5,098 nucleotides of DNA from positions 1 through 5,098 of the IMG/VR virus record IMGVR_UViG_3300029074_000008; one strand, given 5' to 3'. Positions 1 through 5,098 of the stretch are shown one piece after another (positions within the stretch are counted from its first letter, which is position 1; each line of letters starts with the position of its first letter). The notes under the pieces are model-generated. The model saw only the letters and a list, made by a program, of their open reading frames with translations, was not told the origin of the DNA and did not search any database. The stretch is from a virus (Duplodnaviria > Heunggongvirae > Uroviricota > Caudoviricetes). Made by a program: the position numbers and the translations under genes.

Positions 1-153
1 CGTCACGGCTATGAATTACTGATTCACCCGCACGACCCTGCGACTATCAACTATGATCGCTCGCGCTACGCATTGTTACCTGAAACAGAGAAGGCAAAGA
101 TCGAAAGTTACATTGAATTTGTCATCAACCAGAACGAAAAAAGCAAACAATAA
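1..153 (+). CDS. 3' end of an upstream CDS (C-terminal 50 codons; 5' end lies outside the window); product unknown
   Basis: Frame 1 is the only open + frame from position 1 and ends at TAA 151-153; frames 2 and 3 hit stops within the first 25 nt. It is followed 20 nt later by a canonical intrinsic terminator. Translation ...RHGYELLIHPHDPATINYDRSRYALLPETEKAKIESYIEFVINQNEKSKQ*; I do not recognise the family. Confidence 0.6.
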   Translation, partial: RHGYELLIHPHDPATINYDRSRYALLPETEKAKIESYIEFVINQNEKSKQ

Positions 154-173
154 AATCATATTTTTCAGTAAGT

Positions 174-200
174 AAGCCGCCTCATGGCGGCTTTTTTATT
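174..200 (+). terminator. Rho-independent terminator for the upstream gene
   Basis: Perfect 8-bp stem AAGCCGCC (174-181) / GGCGGCTT (186-193) with 4-nt loop TCAT, running into a T-tract TTTTTT (192-197) then ATT. Seen directly in sequence. Confidence 0.85.
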
Positions 201-209
201 GCCTATGCG

Positions 210-226
210 ATTACCTTATGGGTAAT
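210..226. promoter_or_regulatory. Operator-like palindrome, copy 1 (ATTACC-N5-GGTAAT), just upstream of the -35
   Basis: ATTACC (210-215), spacer TTATG, GGTAAT (221-226): perfect 6-bp inverted arms. The same half-sites recur at 272-288. It could alternatively act as a weak AT-rich hairpin before the T-run 226-232. Confidence 0.5.
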
Positions 227-244
227 TTTTTTAACTCATATCTA

Positions 245-273
245 TTGACATCAAACCAGATACGCATAATTAT
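245..273 (+). promoter_or_regulatory. Sigma70-type promoter (pL-like) driving the downstream + strand operon
   Basis: Perfect -35 consensus TTGACA at 245-250; 17-bp spacer; -10 candidate AATTAT at 268-273 (4/6 match, A2 and T6 present). An alternative -10, CATAAT at 265-270, has only a 14-bp spacer. It lies immediately after a terminator and before the first SD/ATG of the gene string. Confidence 0.55.
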
Positions 274-288
274 TACCTCAACGGTAAC
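272..288. promoter_or_regulatory. Operator-like palindrome, copy 2 (ATTACC-N5-GGTAAC), overlapping the -10/+1 region
   Basis: ATTACC (272-277), spacer TCAAC, GGTAAC (283-288). Same half-sites as copy 1; centres about 62 bp apart, flanking the -35. Confidence 0.5.
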
Positions 289-306
289 AGACCGAGGTAA
301 CAAGTT

Positions 307-456
307 ATGCAGTGGAAAATCATCAACGGTTGGTACTGCGTTACTGCATGCGGATTCATGAGCTGGAAGTTCCGCACCTTACAGGAAGGCATTAAGTGGG
401 CTTTCGTCAGCAAAGAAGCTCGCGATGTAGCCAACGATAACGAGATATGGGAGTAG
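307..456 (+). CDS. Small ORF (49 aa), first ORF after the promoter; hypothetical protein
   Basis: ATG 307 preceded by GAGGT (294-298) at 8-9 nt spacing; stop TAG 454-456. Translation MQWKIINGWYCVTACGFMSWKFRTLQEGIKWAFVSKEARDVANDNEIWE (Trp-rich, 2 Cys). Not in the ORF track (below the length cutoff). The track's antisense ORF 273..464 overlaps it; promoter and SD context favour the + ORF. Confidence 0.4.
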   Translation: MQWKIINGWYCVTACGFMSWKFRTLQEGIKWAFVSKEARDVANDNEIWE

Positions 457-464
457 GTTAGCAA

Positions 465-1499
465 ATGAGTGAATTATCAATCATCGAAATCACACCAGAC
501 ATGGCACCAAGAATTTACGTTGAAAAAGGGCTGGAAAAGTTTCTCGAGCAGATCCGTGAAGGTGTTAATGAAGTGCCTGACATTAGCACAGACAAAGGCA
601 GAAAGCGCATTGCATCTCTGGCTGCGAAGGTTTCAAGAAGTAAAACAGCGGTAGAAAAACCAGGACGTGATTATCTGAAACGCCTGAAAGAACAGCCGAA
701 AGTAGTTGAAGCAGAGTTACGACGCTTCGTAACCGAATGCGATCGGCTTCGTGATGAAGTACGCCGCCCACTCACCGAGTGGGAAAATGCTGAGAAATTA
801 CGCACTGAAGCACTGCAACAACGCCTGACAAATTTGCGAGCACTAGCTGACGTGATCGATCTCTCCGGAAACTACTTGCCATCATCTGATATTCAGGAAC
901 GAATTCAAGAGGCTAAATCAGTAGCACTTGATGAAAGTTGGCAGGAGTACGCAGCAGAAGCTGGAGTAGCCAAGGATTCAACCATCCAGAAACTGGAAGA
1001 ATCACTCGCAGTAGCTCAAAAACGCGAGCGTGAAGCCGCTGAGCTGGAGCGACTTCGCAAAGAAGCGGAGGAAAAAGCGCGCATTGAGCGAGAAGAGAAT
1101 ATCCGCCGGGAAGCTGCTGAACAGGCCAGGCTCGAAGCTGAACAAAAAGCGAAAGCTGAAATTGAGGCTGCGGCACGCCTGGCGGCGGAAGAAAAAGCAC
1201 GTGCAGAAGTAGCAGAACGTCAGCGAATTGAAGCAGAGCAGCGTGCACGACGCGAAAAAGAAGAAGCCGTTGCCGAGGAACGCCGACGCCAAGAGGCGGC
1301 AGAAAAAGCCCGCCTTGACGAACAGAAGCGTATCGCCGACGAAGAAGCGCGCCGAGCTGCAGATAAAGAGCATCGCCGTACCGTTAACCGCAGAGTAATC
1401 GCAGATCTGATAGCCCAAGGCATTCACGAAGAATTCGCGCAGAAAGCAATGTTGGCTATCGCTGGCGGCAAAGTGCAGGACGCGTATATCAAATATTGA
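465..1499 (+). CDS. Phage hypothetical protein (344 aa) with globular N- and C-terminal regions flanking a long ER/K-rich charged alpha-helical/coiled-coil segment
   Basis: Long ORF from the track; ATG 465 with AGGT 455-458 upstream. Residues about 185-300 are almost entirely E/A/R/K/Q (e.g. AEEKARIEREENIRREAAEQARLEAEQKAKAEIEAAARLAAEEKARAE...). Family not recognised with certainty. Confidence 0.85.
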   Translation: MSELSIIEITPDMAPRIYVEKGLEKFLEQIREGVNEVPDISTDKGRKRIASLAAKVSRSKTAVEKPGRDYLKRLKEQPKVVEAELRRFVTECDRLRDEVRRPLTEWENAEKLRTEALQQRLTNLRALADVIDLSGNYLPSSDIQERIQEAKSVALDESWQEYAAEAGVAKDSTIQKLEESLAVAQKREREAAELERLRKEAEEKARIEREENIRREAAEQARLEAEQKAKAEIEAAARLAAEEKARAEVAERQRIEAEQRARREKEEAVAEERRRQEAAEKARLDEQKRIADEEARRAADKEHRRTVNRRVIADLIAQGIHEEFAQKAMLAIAGGKVQDAYIKY

Positions 1500-1506
1500 G
1501 GTGGGT

Positions 1507-1806
1507 ATGAACGTTAATCAGCAGAAAAATCTTCAAAAAATCATGCTGGCATTCGACAAGGACTACCGTCTGTCAGAACAGCTATATGACCGACAAGTTG
1601 AACTGATTGAGAGTATCCGGCTTCATCAACTGGCATCAACTTTCGACGTTGTAACAGTTAAAGGCGTTCGCCAGGAAGTACTGGAGGCCGCTAAAGACAG
1701 CCCTGAGTTCGAAGAACTAATGGATGCCTACCGGCGCGAGGCAATGGCAATTATCGCCCGCTGGGATCTGGCTGATCAGCTTGATGGGCAGAGGGACGCG
1801 GCATGA
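1507..1806 (+). CDS. Small acidic hypothetical protein (99 aa), translationally coupled to the exonuclease gene
   Basis: ATG 1507 preceded by GAGGTGGG (1498-1505), which overlaps the upstream stop TGA 1497-1499; the track's GTG 1501 start is less likely. The stop TGA 1804-1806 overlaps the next start ATG 1803 (ATGA). By my hand count about 19 D/E versus 13 K/R. Confidence 0.8.
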   Translation: MNVNQQKNLQKIMLAFDKDYRLSEQLYDRQVELIESIRLHQLASTFDVVTVKGVRQEVLEAAKDSPEFEELMDAYRREAMAIIARWDLADQLDGQRDAA

Positions 1807-2624
1807 AACCGGGAATTTATTTCGACATCAGCAACGAAGACTACCACGCCGGTGACGGCGTGAGTAAGTCGCAACTGGACATGGTTGCCAAGAATCCGGC
1901 GCTTCTTAAATGGGTTCAGGCAGCACCAGAAGACGAAGAGAAAAAGTCTGCACTGGATATGGGAACCGCATTGCACTGTCTGCTTCTGGAGCCTGGAGAG
2001 TTCGACAAACGCTTCATTGTTTCACAGAAATTCGATCGTCGGACGAAACAAGGTAAAGCTGACGAAGAGGAATTTCTTCGTGATGTGGCGGATATGGGGA
2101 TTACGGTACTTGATGCCGAGCAGTGGCGGAAACTGGAGCTGATGCGTGATAGCGCAATGGCTCACCCGGCGGCACGCTGGATGCTGGAAGCACCTGGTTA
2201 CTGCGAAGCATCAATGTACTGGAACGATGAAGAGACGGGGGAGTTGTGCCGAATTCGTCCAGACAAATGGCTGAACGAGCACAACGTGATCGTCGACGTG
2301 AAAAAGGTTGCAGATATGGACCGTTTTGCACGCCACATCGAGGAATTCCGCTACCACGTGCAGGACGCAATGTACCGCGAAGGCGCAATGAGGGTTACTG
2401 GTCAGCCGCATGGTTTTTTCTTTCTTGCCGTGAGCGAAAGCATTGATTGTGGTCGGTATCCGGTACGCGTGTTCGAGCTGGATGCGCAGGATGTCGATGC
2501 CGGGCACGCTCTGTTCCGCCGGGATCTGAATACCTATCACGAATGCCGCATCAATGATGAATGGGGCGGTGTGGAAATCATTAAACGCCCTGAGTGGGCA
2601 CGCAAACAGGATATGTACATATGA
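1803..2624 (+). CDS. RecE-type (exonuclease VIII C-terminal-like) PD-(D/E)XK exonuclease, stand-alone nuclease domain (273 aa)
   Basis: ORF with SD GAGGGA (1791-1796) before ATG 1803. N-terminus MKPGIYFDISNEDYHAGDGVSKSQL resembles the start of the RecE-like PDDEXK nuclease domain as I remember it. PD...(D/E)XK-like motif in IRPDKWLNEHNVIVDVKKV (about 2255-2310). It sits immediately upstream of an annealing-protein gene. Confidence 0.75.
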   Translation: MKPGIYFDISNEDYHAGDGVSKSQLDMVAKNPALLKWVQAAPEDEEKKSALDMGTALHCLLLEPGEFDKRFIVSQKFDRRTKQGKADEEEFLRDVADMGITVLDAEQWRKLELMRDSAMAHPAARWMLEAPGYCEASMYWNDEETGELCRIRPDKWLNEHNVIVDVKKVADMDRFARHIEEFRYHVQDAMYREGAMRVTGQPHGFFFLAVSESIDCGRYPVRVFELDAQDVDAGHALFRRDLNTYHECRINDEWGGVEIIKRPEWARKQDMYI

Positions 2625-3562
2625 GCAACGACATCGCAAACATCAACGCACCAGTAGACACAGCAATCGCTGGAACTGCTGCAACTATTTTCAGCCCAGA
2701 CGGCTTGAACCAACTGATGAAATTCGCCGAGGTAATGGCGCAAAGCCGCGTAACGGTACCGGCGCACCTCGCCGGGAAACCAGCTGATTGCATGGCCGTG
2801 GCAATGCAGGCTGCGCAGTGGGGAATGAACCCGTTTGCCGTGGCTCAGAAAACCCATGTTGTGAACGGCACGCTAGGTTATGAAGCCCAATTAGTAAACG
2901 CAGTTATCTCAACGATGTCGCCAACAAAAGATCGCATCAACTACGAGTGGTTTGGGCCGTGGGAACGCGTGATCGGTAAGTTTGTTGAGAAAACATCCAA
3001 AAACGGCAATCCATATATCGCACCAGGCTGGACTCTAAAAGACGAAGAAGGCTGCGGTGTTCGCGTATGGGCAACCATGAAGGGCGAGGATCAACCTCGA
3101 GTGCTTGAGTTAATGCTGTCTCAAGCACAGGTAAGAAACTCCACACTTTGGGCCAGTGATCCGAAACAACAACTCGCATACCTTGCGACAAAACGCTGGT
3201 CTCGCCTGCACTGTCCTGACGTAATCATGGGCGTCTACACCCCAGACGAATTACAGGAAACGGCACCGCGCGTTGAGCGAGACATTACTCCGCAAACGAC
3301 AACTGCTGCGGGAATGAACAGTCTGATCAACGCTAAAACAGTGAAAAAGCCTGATGAGCAAACGCGTAAAGCGGATAGCCGTGATCCAGAAGAAATGCTG
3401 ATGGCCTTTACCAGCGCAGCGATGAATTACAGCACTGTCTCCGAACTGGATAAGGCTTACAAATACATTGCACAAAAACTTTCAGATGATGACGAACTGC
3501 TGGCAAAAGCCACCGACGTTTACAGCGTTCGTCGGGAAGAATTAAACGAAACATCTATGTAA
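2621..3562 (+). CDS. RecT/Red-beta-family single-strand annealing protein (313 aa)
   Basis: ATG 2621 overlaps the exonuclease stop (ATGA at 2621-2624); AGGA 2608-2611 upstream. Motif AMQAAQWGMNPFAVAQ (about 2816-2836) parallels lambda Bet ANQYGLNPWTKEIYAF (recalled from memory). Classic exonuclease-then-annealase gene order. The track's GTG 2594 start lacks an SD. Confidence 0.75.
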   Translation: MSNDIANINAPVDTAIAGTAATIFSPDGLNQLMKFAEVMAQSRVTVPAHLAGKPADCMAVAMQAAQWGMNPFAVAQKTHVVNGTLGYEAQLVNAVISTMSPTKDRINYEWFGPWERVIGKFVEKTSKNGNPYIAPGWTLKDEEGCGVRVWATMKGEDQPRVLELMLSQAQVRNSTLWASDPKQQLAYLATKRWSRLHCPDVIMGVYTPDELQETAPRVERDITPQTTTAAGMNSLINAKTVKKPDEQTRKADSRDPEEMLMAFTSAAMNYSTVSELDKAYKYIAQKLSDDDELLAKATDVYSVRREELNETSM

Positions 3563-3570
3563 CCACCACC

Positions 3571-3589
3571 GCGGCGCCACGCGCGCCGC
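3571..3589 (+). other. GC-rich perfect hairpin in the RecT/AlpA intergenic region (no U-tract)
   Basis: GCGGCGC (3571-3577), loop CACGC, GCGCCGC (3583-3589): 7 consecutive G:C pairs. Followed by ACTGCAACC, not a T-run, so not a canonical intrinsic terminator. Confidence 0.5.
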
Positions 3590-3611
3590 ACTGCAACCAA
3601 GAGAGGTATTT

Positions 3612-3860
3612 ATGAAAGGTGCATTAGGTAAGAAGGAACTCCTGGCGGTGGTGCCACTGTCATGGAGCACTATCGACCGTATGGAGCGCGCAGGTGAATT
3701 TCCTAAACGCTGGTATATCACTGACAAACGCTGCGCATGGAACCGTGACGAAGTTGAGCGTTGGCTTGATGAACGTCAGGCAGCAAGCCCGGCAGAGTTC
3801 CAGGGTAAAAAGCCTCCTGTTCAGCAACGTGTATATCGTCCTGTGAGCAACGCTGCATGA
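3612..3860 (+). CDS. AlpA/Xis-family winged-helix DNA-binding protein (82 aa)
   Basis: SD GAGAGG (3601-3606) 5 nt before ATG 3612. Translation ...ELLAVVPLSWSTIDRMERAGEFPKRWYITDKRCAWNRDEVERWL fits the AlpA/excisionase pattern (S-x-ST-I-x-R ... G-x-FP-K ... W-x-x-x-E-V-x-x-W) as I recall it. Confidence 0.75.
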   Translation: MKGALGKKELLAVVPLSWSTIDRMERAGEFPKRWYITDKRCAWNRDEVERWLDERQAASPAEFQGKKPPVQQRVYRPVSNAA

Positions 3861-3885
3861 GTGCGCTGCTAAGGCACTGGAGCAA

Positions 3886-3969
3886 ATGGTCAGGATGGTA
3901 CTTATTCCTGGCCTCTGTTTCAGCATGGCTTTATCTGCTGGCATTAATTTTCAGAGAGGGTTGGATTAA
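3886..3969 (+). CDS. Candidate 27-aa hydrophobic mini-ORF (speculative)
   Basis: ATG 3886 (GGAG 3878-3881 only about 4 nt upstream, so spacing is short); stop TAA 3967-3969. Translation MVRMVLIPGLCFSMALSAGINFQRGLD has a roughly 19-residue hydrophobic stretch. It is in the same frame as the next ORF, separated only by the TAA. Confidence 0.2.
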   Translation: MVRMVLIPGLCFSMALSAGINFQRGLD

Positions 3970-4269
3970 GTGAGAAAGTTAAGCCGACTTGAAAAATATC
4001 ACATGAACAAGGTTTCAATGCGCAGCCCTTCAAAGATTGTCGCCGTTACTCCTGCGGCGATAGAGATCGAAAAACGCGCGATTGAAAGAGAGAAAAAAGG
4101 GCAATTCCGCATTGCCGCTCACCTTTGGCTTCAGTGTATGGATGTTGCTTCTGGTGATGTTGAACGTGCAAGGATCGCGGTTCGCAGGGACCAATGTATC
4201 ACAAAAGGTAACGGCCTTCGCCGTGGCGACTATAGCGGCATAGGATGTTGTGGGGTGGTTTATGACTAA
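3970..4269 (+). CDS. Small hypothetical protein (99 aa from GTG 3970; 88 or 83 aa if it starts at ATG 4003 or ATG 4018); possibly a small regulator
   Basis: ORF from the track. The start is ambiguous: GTG 3970 directly follows an in-frame TAA. C-terminal CC pair ([10 protein letters not shown]). The segment FRIAAHLWLQCMDVASGDVERARIAVRRDQC vaguely recalls small prophage ANR-type regulators, but I cannot confirm this. Stop TAA 4267-4269 overlaps the MTase ATG 4262. Confidence 0.65.
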   Translation: MRKLSRLEKYHMNKVSMRSPSKIVAVTPAAIEIEKRAIEREKKGQFRIAAHLWLQCMDVASGDVERARIAVRRDQCITKGNGLRRGDYSGIGCCGVVYD

Positions 4270-4912
4270 GAAATACACACTAATCTATGCAGATCCACCC
4301 TGGGTATACCGGGACAAAGCCGCAGATGGTAATCGCGGTGCCAGTTTTAAATATCCGGTTATGAGTGTGATGGATATCTGCCGCCTTCCTGTGTGGGATT
4401 TGGCCGATGAAAACTGTCTGTTGGCCATGTGGTGGGTGCCAACACAACCACTCGAAGCGCTAAAAGTTGTTGAAGCCTGGGGATTCCGTCTGATGACCAT
4501 GAAGGGCTTCACGTGGATAAAATGTGGTAGTCGACAACCAGATAAACTGGTTATGGGTATGGGGCACATGACTCGCGCCAATAGTGAAGATTGCCTGTTT
4601 GCGGTAAAGGGAAAGCTACCTACGCGCATTAATGCAGGGATCGTTCAGTCATTTACCGCACCGCGGCTTGAGCATTCAAGAAAACCAGATATCGTTCGTG
4701 AAAAACTTGTGCAATTGTTAGGCGATGTTTCTCGCATTGAACTGTTCGCCCGCCAGACGTCTCATGGCTTCGATGTTTGGGGTAATCAGTGCGAAGACCC
4801 GGCAGTGCAACTACACCCTGGATACGCGTTGGATATTGGCGGATTAACAAATGCATTCAGCAATGCTCCGGTGTCACCAATAGACAACCAGGGGCGGGAG
4901 CGTGCAGCATGA
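4262..4912 (+). CDS. MT-A70-family N6-adenine DNA methyltransferase (216 aa), apparently orphan (no cognate nuclease in window)
   Basis: Motif IYADPPW (DPPW, catalytic motif IV; GAT at 4292-4294) near the N-terminus, and EHSRKPD near the C-terminal third. The ATG 4262 start is preferred over the track's GTG 4250. The stop TGA 4910-4912 overlaps the next ATG 4909. Confidence 0.85.
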
Positions 4913-5049
4913 ACCTATATCAACGCATCAATGGCGCTGACTGGTGCAATATCTTCGTCGTCGGCGATCTGCATGGGTGCTACACGCTGCTGATGAACGA
5001 ACTCGACAAAGTTTCATTCGACCCACTCAATTATTTACGACAAACATAA
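4909..5049 (+). pseudogene. Truncated lambda-type Ser/Thr protein phosphatase (metallophosphoesterase): only the N-terminal 46 codons
   Basis: [39 protein letters not shown] closely parallels the lambda PPase N-terminus (...[25 protein letters not shown]..., recalled) and includes the GDxHG metal-binding motif. Similarity stops after FDP (about 5025) and the frame ends at TAA 5047-5049. No continuation with the expected second motif (roughly ISVGDL-DRG) exists in any + frame of the remaining about 70 nt. Confidence 0.7.
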
Positions 5050-5098
5050 CCAATTGAGTGATAACAACTTTCTCATAACTTACTTCCACCGTACCGTT

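What the first reader, a model, noticed from the sequence alone, without database searches (positions are those of the whole stretch)
4909..5098. Ser/Thr phosphatase gene cut off after 46 codons: an abrupt homology breakpoint near 5025
Seen in sequence and established knowledge: the N-terminus, including the GDLHG metal-binding motif, is close to lambda-type PPase, but similarity ends right after FDP and an in-frame TAA follows at 5047-5049. None of the other conserved phosphoesterase motifs appear in any frame of the remaining roughly 70 nt. On the minus strand, a frame open from the window edge terminates at 5027-5029, exactly at the breakpoint; this is only weak evidence because a 70-nt open frame is common by chance. 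Inference: a deletion or recombination junction (mosaic boundary) created a phosphatase remnant, possibly with a convergent gene entering from downstream.
Basis: partly seen in the sequence, partly recalled or inferred. Interest (0 to 1): 0.45.

Follow-up and report, generated by a model that had tools for sequence, protein, structure and literature searches.

The report
Integrase-deleting junction at phage attachment site
The cut-off phosphatase gene marks a precise 2-kb deletion in a phiV10-like temperate E. coli phage, which fuses the gene to the centre of the phage's attachment site and removes the integrase; this is an ordinary kind of event, probably made by the integrase itself.

Summary
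A lambda-type phosphatase ORF starts at 4909, carries GDLHG, loses homology after 5024 and stops at TAA 5047-5049.

The window is a whole 5,098-nt JGI metagenome contig. It covers the early-left arm of a phiV10/epsilon15-like podophage (Uetakevirus).

It is 100% identical to an intact phage contig (L025), except that 2,003 bp are missing. The missing DNA holds phosphatase codons 40-219, the whole integrase gene and the P arm of attP.

The right side of the junction (5022-5098) is the P' arm of attP. It starts at the central CCC of the published 17-bp att core AATCATTCCCACTCAAT.

The same junction, base for base, occurs in an unrelated Logan contig (ERR474217). That contig has a diverged phage background and runs on into spanin, endolysin, holins and tailspike.

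Most likely the phage integrase recombined attP with a weak secondary site in the nearby phosphatase gene. This resembles the Int-promoted att deletions known from lambda, and it leaves an integration-defective phage. A microhomology deletion is the main rival.

The minus-strand "convergent ORF" is a chance frame. The real convergent gene, the spanin, stops 10 nt beyond the contig end.

This is a new example of a known kind and of modest interest.

The parts
4262..4912 (+). MT-A70 adenine methyltransferase gene (216 aa from the ATG at 4262). It is the upstream neighbour of the phosphatase in every relative examined.
   Evidence: PF05063 on the identical product in 10 lysogen contigs. Annotated as MT-A70 family methyltransferase under the match.
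4909..5049 (+). Phosphatase remnant ORF of 46 codons plus TAA. Residues 1-39 come from the lambda-type Ser/Thr phosphatase (GDLHG at 4963-4977). Residues 40-46 (LNYLRQT) are read from att DNA.
   Evidence: The intact homologue is 219 aa, hits PF00149 and matches lambda PPase 1G5B at E=1e-98. The remnant has no Pfam hit.
4909..5024 (+). DNA derived from the phosphatase gene. It is the left flank of the junction and plays the role of the left half of a secondary bacterial-type site.
   Evidence: 100% identical to L025 14445-14560, and to L020 and L023. Intact genes continue with GGCGCGCGATTTAC.
5022..5024 (.). Crossover interval: CCC, shared by the phosphatase gene (GACCC|GGCG) and by the centre of the att core (AATCATT-CCC-ACTCAAT).
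   Evidence: The two alignments to L025 overlap here: 1-5024 and 5022-5098. Core sequences are lined up.
5022..5031 (.). Right 10 nt (CCCACTCAAT) of the 17-bp att core AATCATTCCCACTCAAT, which is the 3' end of host guaA read on the other strand. The left 7 nt of the core are missing.
   Evidence: The core was derived here from attP, attL, attR and attB. The same 17-mer is published as the verified attP/attB core of ZX5, phiV10 and epsilon15 (PMC9782041).
5025..5098 (.). P' arm of attP: non-coding DNA lying between the core and the 3' end of the spanin gene.
   Evidence: 100% identical to L025 16564-16637 and 96% to phage Tyrion between int and spanin. In lysogens it lies just inside attL, next to yfgI.
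5024..5060 (.). Inverted repeat CACTCAATT (5024-5032) / AATTGAGTG (5052-5060) within the core-proximal P' arm. It may be a protein-binding element of attP (inference).
   Evidence: Pair I2 of the repeat finder on L025. Sequence read.
5088..5097 (.). ACCGT-ACCGT: the first of the ACCGT(C/A) repeats that recur in both arms of attP. They are candidate arm-type integrase sites (inference).
   Evidence: Families D1, I5 and I6. ATACCGTCAC copies at L025 16095, 16185 and 16420, and the P'-arm copy at 16642 from pair I6.

Best explanation
SHOWN.
- The window is the early-left arm of a phiV10/epsilon15-like temperate podophage. Its gene order is repressor 3' end, a 344-aa ORF, a PD-(D/E)XK exonuclease, RecT, AlpA, PerC, the MT-A70 methylase and the phosphatase.
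- In intact relatives the order continues phosphatase (660 nt), a convergent integrase, attP, and then a convergent spanin, endolysin and holins.
- In the window a precise 2,003-bp segment is missing. It holds phosphatase codons 40-219, the whole integrase gene and the P arm of attP.
- Codon 39 of the phosphatase is therefore fused to the central CCC of the 17-bp att core, and the P' arm follows. The result is a hybrid attachment site (phosphatase'-half core-P').
- The same junction exists in a second, diverged phage genome.

INFERRED MECHANISM.
- After the phage DNA circularised, or within a tandem array, the phage's own P4-type tyrosine integrase recombined attP with a weak secondary site 2 kb away in the phosphatase gene. 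attP has both arms. The secondary site is arm-less and resembles a bacterial attachment site.
- The two sites lie in direct orientation, so the DNA between them was looped out as a non-replicating 2-kb circle and lost.
- The only homology at the exchange point is CCC. This would allow one pair of strand exchanges. The other pair would have to be completed by replication or by host resolution.

CONSEQUENCE (inferred).
- The phosphatase is dead, because it keeps only one of its metal-binding motifs.
- The phage has lost int and half of attP, so it cannot integrate on its own. It keeps its repressor, recombination, lysis and structural genes.
For: (1) The window is 100.000% identical to L025 9537-14560 (window 1-5024) and to L025 16561-16637 (window 5022-5098). 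The gap in L025 is 2,003 bp.

(2) L025 and more than 20 lysogen contigs show the order methylase, PF00149 phosphatase, integrase (PF13356, PF22022, PF00589), then guaA or spanin.

(3) The att core was derived from attB (K-12), attL, attR and attP as AATCATTCCCACTCAAT. It equals the experimentally verified core attgagtgggaatgatt of ZX5, phiV10 and epsilon15 (PMC9782041). The junction CCC occupies positions 8-10 of the 17, the exact centre.

(4) Recurrence. Logan ERR474217 contig 2 (L028) carries the identical junction GTTTCATTCGACCCACTCAATTATTTACG, followed by spanin, endolysin, holins and tailspike. Its background differs from the window. There are 23 mismatches in the 1,500 nt to the left. 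The P' arm is only 59/74 identical, with the first difference 20 nt from the junction. The 344-aa gene is absent.

(5) Slippage had better substrates. The 2.2-kb interval holds 57 exact direct-repeat pairs of 8 nt or more, and 18 pairs of 9 nt or more. Both genomes nevertheless used the 3-nt CCC inside the core.

(6) In the register of the deletion the two sites also share ATTTAC at +9 to +14 and TTnAT at -9 to -5.

(7) Precedent: Int recombines attP with secondary sites at low frequency (Shimada 1975, as cited in PMC6379469). From my own knowledge, lambda att deletions are Int-promoted (Parkinson; Davis & Parkinson, 1971).
Against: - The phosphatase site resembles att only weakly. It has 14/33 ungapped matches to attP, and 2.6% of all positions in 21 kb of the phage score as well or better. 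Apart from CCC, the central bases differ (TCGA-CCC-GGCG versus CATT-CCC-ACTC). A tyrosine recombinase should disfavour such a site.
- An interrupted direct repeat, TCATTC(GA)CCC versus TCATTCCC, could support slipped mispairing without any integrase.
- Integrase dependence cannot be tested in silico.
- The two sightings may share a single ancestral event, with the P' arm exchanged later.
- No reciprocal product was found anywhere. This is expected for a lost minicircle, so it neither supports nor contradicts the model.
- In the window itself the junction lies only 74-77 nt from a contig end.
Confidence: 0.65

Rival explanations
1. An integrase-independent illegitimate deletion. Replication slippage or end-joining at microhomology (CCC, helped by the nearby TCATTC) removed 2 kb. 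Its right endpoint falls in the att core only because the core happens to contain TCATTCCC.
For: Both partners share the interrupted repeat TCATTC..CCC. Overall resemblance of the phosphatase site to att is weak. Losing non-essential lysogeny genes is viable for a phage that is growing lytically.
Against: The endpoint lies in the exact centre of a 17-bp core within a roughly 39-kb genome. Better substrates were not used: 57 exact direct-repeat pairs of 8 nt or more and 18 pairs of 9 nt or more exist in the same interval. The junction sits at CCC and retains GA, so it is not in the register of the 6-nt repeat. An identical junction occurs in a second, diverged background.
Confidence: 0.2
2. The chemistry is the same (integrase acting at the secondary site in the phosphatase gene) but the topology differs. 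A second phage genome integrated into the phosphatase gene of a resident prophage, giving a nested or tandem polylysogen. The window would then be the left hybrid joint (an attL-like junction), not a deletion.
For: The junction has exactly the structure of an attL, with the phosphatase gene in the place of bacterial DNA. The contig stops 77 nt after the first base shared with wild-type att, which fits a second path entering the same P' arm in the assembly graph (inference). L025 is about two unit lengths long with attP in the middle, so arrays may exist.
Against: The reciprocal joint P-core-'phosphatase is absent from 5,426 complete E. coli genomes, the GTDB representatives, the JGI contigs and IMG/VR. 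L028 runs unbroken for 18.7 kb across the junction in what I understand to be a k=31-based Logan assembly (k value from my own knowledge, not a tool output). A second closely related prophage in that sample would have fragmented the contig (inference).
Confidence: 0.1
3. An assembly or library chimera. The last 77 nt were joined wrongly at the end of a metagenome contig.
For: The window is a whole 5,098-nt metagenome contig. The junction is 74-77 nt from its end, and 77 is a common assembler k-mer size.
Against: The two sides share only 3 nt, so a de Bruijn graph cannot join them without reads that span the junction. The identical junction occurs in an independent sample and assembler, with more than 5 kb on one side and more than 10 kb on the other.
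Confidence: 0.03

Closest known systems
Int-promoted deletions of phage lambda that end at att (att-defective deletion mutants; Parkinson 1971, Davis & Parkinson 1971, recalled from my own knowledge), and lambda secondary attachment sites (Shimada, Weisberg & Gottesman 1975, cited in PMC6379469)
   Same: One endpoint lies exactly in the att core. The other lies at a nearby site with little resemblance to att. DNA on one side of attP is lost, leaving a hybrid att with one arm and an integration-defective but otherwise complete phage.
   Different: The integrase family differs (P4-type, with an Arm-DNA-bind_3 domain, versus lambda Int), as does the phage (a podovirus that integrates at the 3' end of guaA). 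Here the deletion removes int itself. Int dependence is inferred, not demonstrated. These are natural isolates from sequence data, not laboratory-selected mutants.
attP/attL of Uetakeviruses phiV10, epsilon15 and vB_EcoP_ZX5 (17-bp core attgagtgggaatgatt at the guaA 3' end; PMC9782041)
   Same: The right half of the core and the P' arm in the window are the same element. They are 100% identical to L025 attP, 96% to Tyrion, and 80-92% to E. coli attL sites.
   Different: The left 7 nt of the core, the whole P arm and the adjacent integrase gene are missing. Phosphatase coding sequence takes their place.
Bacteriophage lambda Ser/Thr protein phosphatase (NinI, PDB 1G5B; PF00149)
   Same: The intact allele in sister phages aligns with 1G5B over 217 residues (E=1e-98). 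The remnant keeps the N-terminus with motif GDLHG.
   Different: The remnant has 39 of 219 residues and lacks GDxxDRG, GNHE and the downstream histidines, so it cannot be an active enzyme. In this phage family the gene sits between the methylase and int rather than in a nin region.
Int-mediated rearrangement between att and a secondary site inside a prophage (HK022 inversions, Dorgai et al. 1993, as cited in PMC6379469)
   Same: A phage integrase uses a secondary site located within its own genome, which 'grounds' or cripples the element.
   Different: That case is an inversion in lysogens lacking Xis/Fis. This one is a deletion, because the sites are in direct orientation.

Membership tests
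Lambda-type Ser/Thr phosphatase (metallophosphoesterase, PF00149) | Motif I, GDxHG (metal ligands) | tested here: met
   GDLHG at residues 19-23, encoded at 4963-4977.
Lambda-type Ser/Thr phosphatase (metallophosphoesterase, PF00149) | Motifs II (GDxxDRG) and III (GNHE), the C-terminal His ligands, and a domain-level match to PF00149 | tested here: not met
   The product ends at residue 46. The alignment to the intact 219-aa protein shows GDLVDRG and GNHE lying in the deleted part. The remnant has no Pfam hit, while the intact protein scores 57.9 bits. The remnant is therefore a pseudogene fragment, not a family member in any functional sense.
Uetakevirus attP (phiV10/epsilon15/ZX5 type) | Complete 17-bp core AATCATTCCCACTCAAT | tested here: not met
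   Only CCCACTCAAT (5022-5031) is present. It is preceded by ...TCATTCGA from the phosphatase gene.
Uetakevirus attP (phiV10/epsilon15/ZX5 type) | P' arm between the core and the spanin gene | tested here: met
   Window 5025-5098 is 100% identical to L025 16564-16637 and 96% to Tyrion.
Uetakevirus attP (phiV10/epsilon15/ZX5 type) | P arm with a terminator hairpin and ATACCGTCA repeats, with the adjacent integrase gene | tested here: not met
   Both lie in the missing 2,003 bp, L025 14561-16563.
Integrase-promoted secondary-site deletion | One endpoint inside the crossover region of the att core | tested here: met
   The crossover interval CCC occupies positions 8-10 of the 17-bp core.
Integrase-promoted secondary-site deletion | The partner site resembles the core | tested here: inconclusive
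   14/33 matches, which ranks in the top 2.6% of positions. The sites share CCC, ATTTAC at +9 to +14 and TTnAT at -9 to -5, but the bases flanking CCC differ.
Integrase-promoted secondary-site deletion | The same site is used reproducibly | tested here: met
   An identical junction occurs in L028 (ERR474217) in a diverged background. Common descent with a later arm exchange is not excluded.
Integrase-promoted secondary-site deletion | Dependence on integrase | not testable with these tools
   This needs int+ versus int- phage infections or in vitro recombination.
Uetakevirus (phiV10-like) early-left operon | Synteny and nucleotide identity with phiV10-group genomes | tested here: met
   94-99% identity over 70-91% of the window to phiv142-3, phiV10, PAS61, ZX5 and TL-2011b. 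The gene order is the same in 20 lysogen contigs.

The most novel reading that the evidence does not exclude
The site at codon 39 of the phosphatase gene is a genuine, repeatedly used secondary attachment site. Under this reading, phiV10-like temperate phages that carry the phosphatase allele regularly shed int-less, integration-defective (effectively virulent or helper-dependent) derivatives in nature through their own integrase. The two sightings would then be independent events.
Probability: 0.3. Interest if true: 0.45.

Novelty: new member of a known kind. Interest (0 to 1): 0.3.

Why it matters
It turns an unexplained truncated gene into a fully mapped event with a known parent sequence, deletion size, endpoints and lost functions.

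It shows that int-less derivatives of phiV10-type phages exist in natural samples. phiV10-type phages include an E. coli O157 phage that modifies the O157 antigen, and relatives in other Enterobacteriaceae. These derivatives carry a diagnostic hybrid att junction that can be searched for.

For prophage annotation, it warns that a complete-looking Uetakevirus genome may lack integrase and a functional attP.

If integrase dependence is confirmed, this would be a natural example, outside lambda, of an integrase deleting its own gene through a secondary site. That would be one route from temperate to non-integrating phage.

The biology is not new in kind.

Tried and rejected
- IS end or foreign insertion at the breakpoint: rejected. 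The downstream 77 nt are the phage's own P' arm.
- Mosaic boundary between phage lineages: rejected. Both flanks are 100% identical to one intact phage contig.
- Convergent gene ending at 5027-5029: rejected. It is a 20-codon chance ORF in the intact phage, and the spanin stops at L025 16648 in another frame.
- Frameshift or sequencing indel with the phosphatase continuing: rejected. No further phosphatase sequence follows.
- Promoter or terminator at the junction: none found.
- Searches for the source or for further copies of the junction found nothing in IMG/VR, the GTDB representative genomes, the JGI contigs, 5,426 complete E. coli genomes or any fetched locus.
- An exact-product look-up of the 46-aa protein in the gene-position index failed, although the cluster table lists it on a 5,098-nt JGI contig.
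- Searches for reciprocal joints found nothing.
- A scan of 119 IMG/VR loci carrying the P'-arm 16-mer, looking for other hybrid left contexts, found only canonical attP/attL sites (with species variants of the guaA end) and chance matches.
- A search for an exact intact parent of L028 in complete genomes gave best matches of only 98.7%, and in different genomes for the two flanks. The age of that event cannot be judged.
- P0012, another truncated phosphatase, proved to be an unrelated deletion in a lambdoid nin region.

Full report
**1. The observation**

- The ATG at 4909 overlaps the stop codon of the upstream MT-A70 methylase gene (ATGA).
- The ORF encodes [46 protein letters not shown] and ends at TAA 5047-5049.

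Megablast of 4600-5098 against 5,426 complete E. coli genomes found 620 records. The listed best hits, covering 85% of the query, carry a methylase followed by an intact 'serine/threonine protein phosphatase'. Every such alignment stops at query position 425, which is window 5024. Phage records behave the same way.

The intact 219-aa protein of a sister phage aligns with lambda phosphatase 1G5B over 217 residues (E=1e-98) and hits PF00149. The 46-aa remnant hits nothing.

Residues 1-39 match the intact protein. Residues 40-46 do not.

**2. What the window is**

The window matches phiV10-group podophages (genus Uetakevirus) at 94-99% identity: phiv142-3, phiV10, PAS61, ZX5 and TL-2011b.

It covers the early-left arm. 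The order is the 3' end of the repressor-like HTH gene, a 344-aa ORF, a 99-aa ORF, a PD-(D/E)XK exonuclease, RecT, AlpA, PerC, the MT-A70 methylase and the phosphatase.

In PAS61 and in more than 20 E. coli lysogen contigs the methylase is followed by one of two alleles. One is the 660-nt phosphatase. The other is a 64-aa DUF1382 protein. A convergent integrase (PF13356, PF22022, PF00589) comes next, and then attR and guaA.

The cluster table shows that the window's 46-aa product is on record from JGI/IMG on a single contig of 5,098 nt. The window is therefore an entire metagenome contig.

**3. What lies to the right of the breakpoint**

- Window 5022-5098 matches Enterobacter phage Tyrion at 96%, in the unannotated gap between the 5' end of int and the 3' end of the spanin gene.
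- It matches 570 E. coli chromosomes at 80-92%. There it lies just inside the left prophage end, between yfgI and the spanin.
- Comparison of K-12 attB with attL, attR and attP defines the common core as AATCATTCCCACTCAAT. This is the last codons and stop codon of guaA, read on the other strand.
- The same 17-mer (attgagtgggaatgatt) is reported as the verified attP/attB core of ZX5, phiV10 and epsilon15 (PMC9782041).
- The window reads ...GTTTCATTCGA-CCC-ACTCAAT-TATTTACGAC.... The intact phosphatase reads ...GTTTCATTCGA-CCC-GGCGCGCGATTTAC.... attP reads ...GTTAATCATT-CCC-ACTCAAT-TATTTACGAC....

The sequence therefore switches from the phosphatase gene to att within the central CCC of the core.

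**4. The parent sequence and the size of the event**

The ENA metagenome contig L025 (ERZ1741973 NODE_114) carries the same phage in the attP configuration. Its order is phosphatase 14445-15104, int 15107-16363, core at 16554-16570, and spanin 16648-17148.

The window is 100.000% identical to L025 9537-14560 over positions 1-5024. It is 100% identical to L025 16561-16637 over positions 5022-5098.

The window therefore equals this phage minus 2,003 bp (L025 14561-16563, with a 3-nt ambiguity). The missing DNA holds:
- phosphatase codons 40-219;
- the whole integrase gene;
- the P arm, with its terminator hairpin and ATACCGTCA repeats.

What remains is a hybrid site: phosphatase', half a core, and the P' arm.

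**5. A second, independent sighting**

A protein search with the 46-aa product returned P0001. It is 46 aa long and identical except for the last residue. It is encoded on Logan contig ERR474217_2 (18.7 kb, L028).

In L028 the methylase and the remnant are followed by the identical junction GTTTCATTCGACCCACTCAATTATTTACG. After 83 nt come a convergent spanin, endolysin, two holins, a tailspike and further late genes.

L028 is a different phage background.
- It has 23 mismatches in the 1,500 nt to the left of the junction.
- It lacks the 344-aa gene.
- It has a different RecT allele and a different tailspike.
- Its P' arm is only 59/74 identical, diverging 20 nt from the junction.

**6. Mechanism**

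Four facts argue that the phage integrase made the junction.
- The endpoint sits in the exact centre of the att core.
- Only the arm-bearing partner (attP) and an arm-less partner are needed. This is the geometry of integrative recombination.
- The junction recurs in a second background.
- Longer direct repeats went unused. The same 2.2-kb interval holds 57 exact repeat pairs of 8 nt or more, and 18 of 9 nt or more.

The sites are in direct orientation, so intramolecular recombination deletes the intervening DNA as a 2-kb circle that cannot replicate.

This is the behaviour known for lambda. Int uses secondary sites at low frequency (Shimada et al. 1975, cited in PMC6379469). From my own knowledge, many lambda deletions that end at att are Int-promoted (Parkinson 1971; Davis & Parkinson 1971). 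I could not retrieve those papers here.

The weak point is that the phosphatase site is a poor copy of att.
- It has 14/33 ungapped matches, and 2.6% of positions in 21 kb score as well.
- Next to CCC the bases differ.
- In the register of the deletion the two sites do share ATTTAC at +9 to +14 and TTnAT at -9 to -5.

I infer that CCC allowed one pair of strand exchanges and that replication or host enzymes completed the event. This step is speculative.

**7. Rivals**

- Microhomology deletion. An integrase-independent slippage at the interrupted repeat TCATTC(GA)CCC / TCATTCCC remains possible (confidence about 0.2).
- Nested prophage. A second phage integrated into the phosphatase gene of a resident prophage would give the same joint. 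The reciprocal joint is absent from every collection searched. L028 is also unbroken over 18.7 kb, which argues for a single phage copy in that sample (inference).
- Chimeric assembly. This is excluded in practice by the 3-nt overlap and by the independent contig.

**8. Consequences**

The remnant keeps one of the phosphatase's metal-binding motifs and cannot be active.

The phage has lost int and half of attP, so it cannot integrate or be excised by its own means. It keeps the repressor, AlpA, the recombination genes, and the lysis and structural genes.

It would therefore persist only by lytic growth, by abortive or helper-assisted lysogeny, or within an array. This is inference.

**9.

- The minus-strand frame ending at 5027-5029 is a 20-codon chance ORF in the intact phage.
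- The real convergent gene, the spanin, stops 10 nt beyond the contig end, in another frame.
- No promoter-like or terminator-like site lies at the junction.

**10. Verdict**

The event is a precisely mapped, probably integrase-made deletion that joins a phosphatase gene to the phage attachment site.

It is a new example, in Uetakeviruses, of a phenomenon long known from lambda. It is useful for annotation and gives an easy experimental test of integrase secondary-site activity, but it is not surprising in kind.

Noticed in passing
window 5022-5098 (the contig end): The window is a whole 5,098-nt JGI contig. It ends exactly 77 nt after the first base it shares with wild-type att. This is what a k=77 de Bruijn contig would do on reaching a vertex where the deletion path meets a wild-type attP or attL path. 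It suggests that both forms coexist in the sample. This is inference only.
   Followed up: partly
L025 (ENA ERZ1741973 NODE_114, 79.6 kb), attP core at locus 16554: The contig is about two phage unit lengths long, with an intact attP near its middle (contig position about 39.8 kb). It may be a tandem dilysogen of two related phages or an assembled dimer.
   Followed up: no
L025 16486-16509; L005 (K-12) 4909-4932: The phage P arm carries the hairpin AACCCTCTGT-aaaa-ACAGAGGGTT. It is a near copy of the host terminator between yfgI and guaA. The integrated phage therefore restores both the last codons of guaA and a terminator.
   Followed up: partly
L025 16095, 16185, 16420, 16391 (inverted), 16642; window 5088-5097: ATACCGTCA(C) repeats occur in both att arms, and twice inside the 5' coding part of int. 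They are candidate arm-type integrase sites, which would mean attP extends into the int gene.
   Followed up: partly
proteins P0002, P0006, P0008-P0011, P0013, P0014: Many other truncated phosphatase products in public data lose the reading frame at or within a few codons of FDP, around the GGCGCGCG run that follows the junction site in intact genes. I read these as frameshifts from the protein sequences alone. This accessory gene appears to decay often.
   Followed up: no
L148 4001-4144 (Logan SRR12461012 and 12 similar contigs): A different 47-aa phosphatase remnant (P0012) sits after NinB-NinE in a lambdoid prophage and is fused directly to tail genes (DUF6246, tape measure). This is an unrelated large deletion.
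   Followed up: partly
window 465-1499: A 344-aa Glu/Arg/Ala-rich ORF has no Pfam hit. It lies on a roughly 1-kb segment (454-1506) that is missing from most relatives, including phiV10, but is present in phiv142-3 and in some lysogens. Its function is unknown.
   Followed up: no
window 4909 onward; L017-L019, L022, L026 (about 14385-14811): The slot between the methylase and int holds one of two alternative alleles across the phage group: the 219-aa phosphatase or a 64-aa DUF1382 protein. Only phosphatase-carrying phages possess the secondary site used here.
   Followed up: partly
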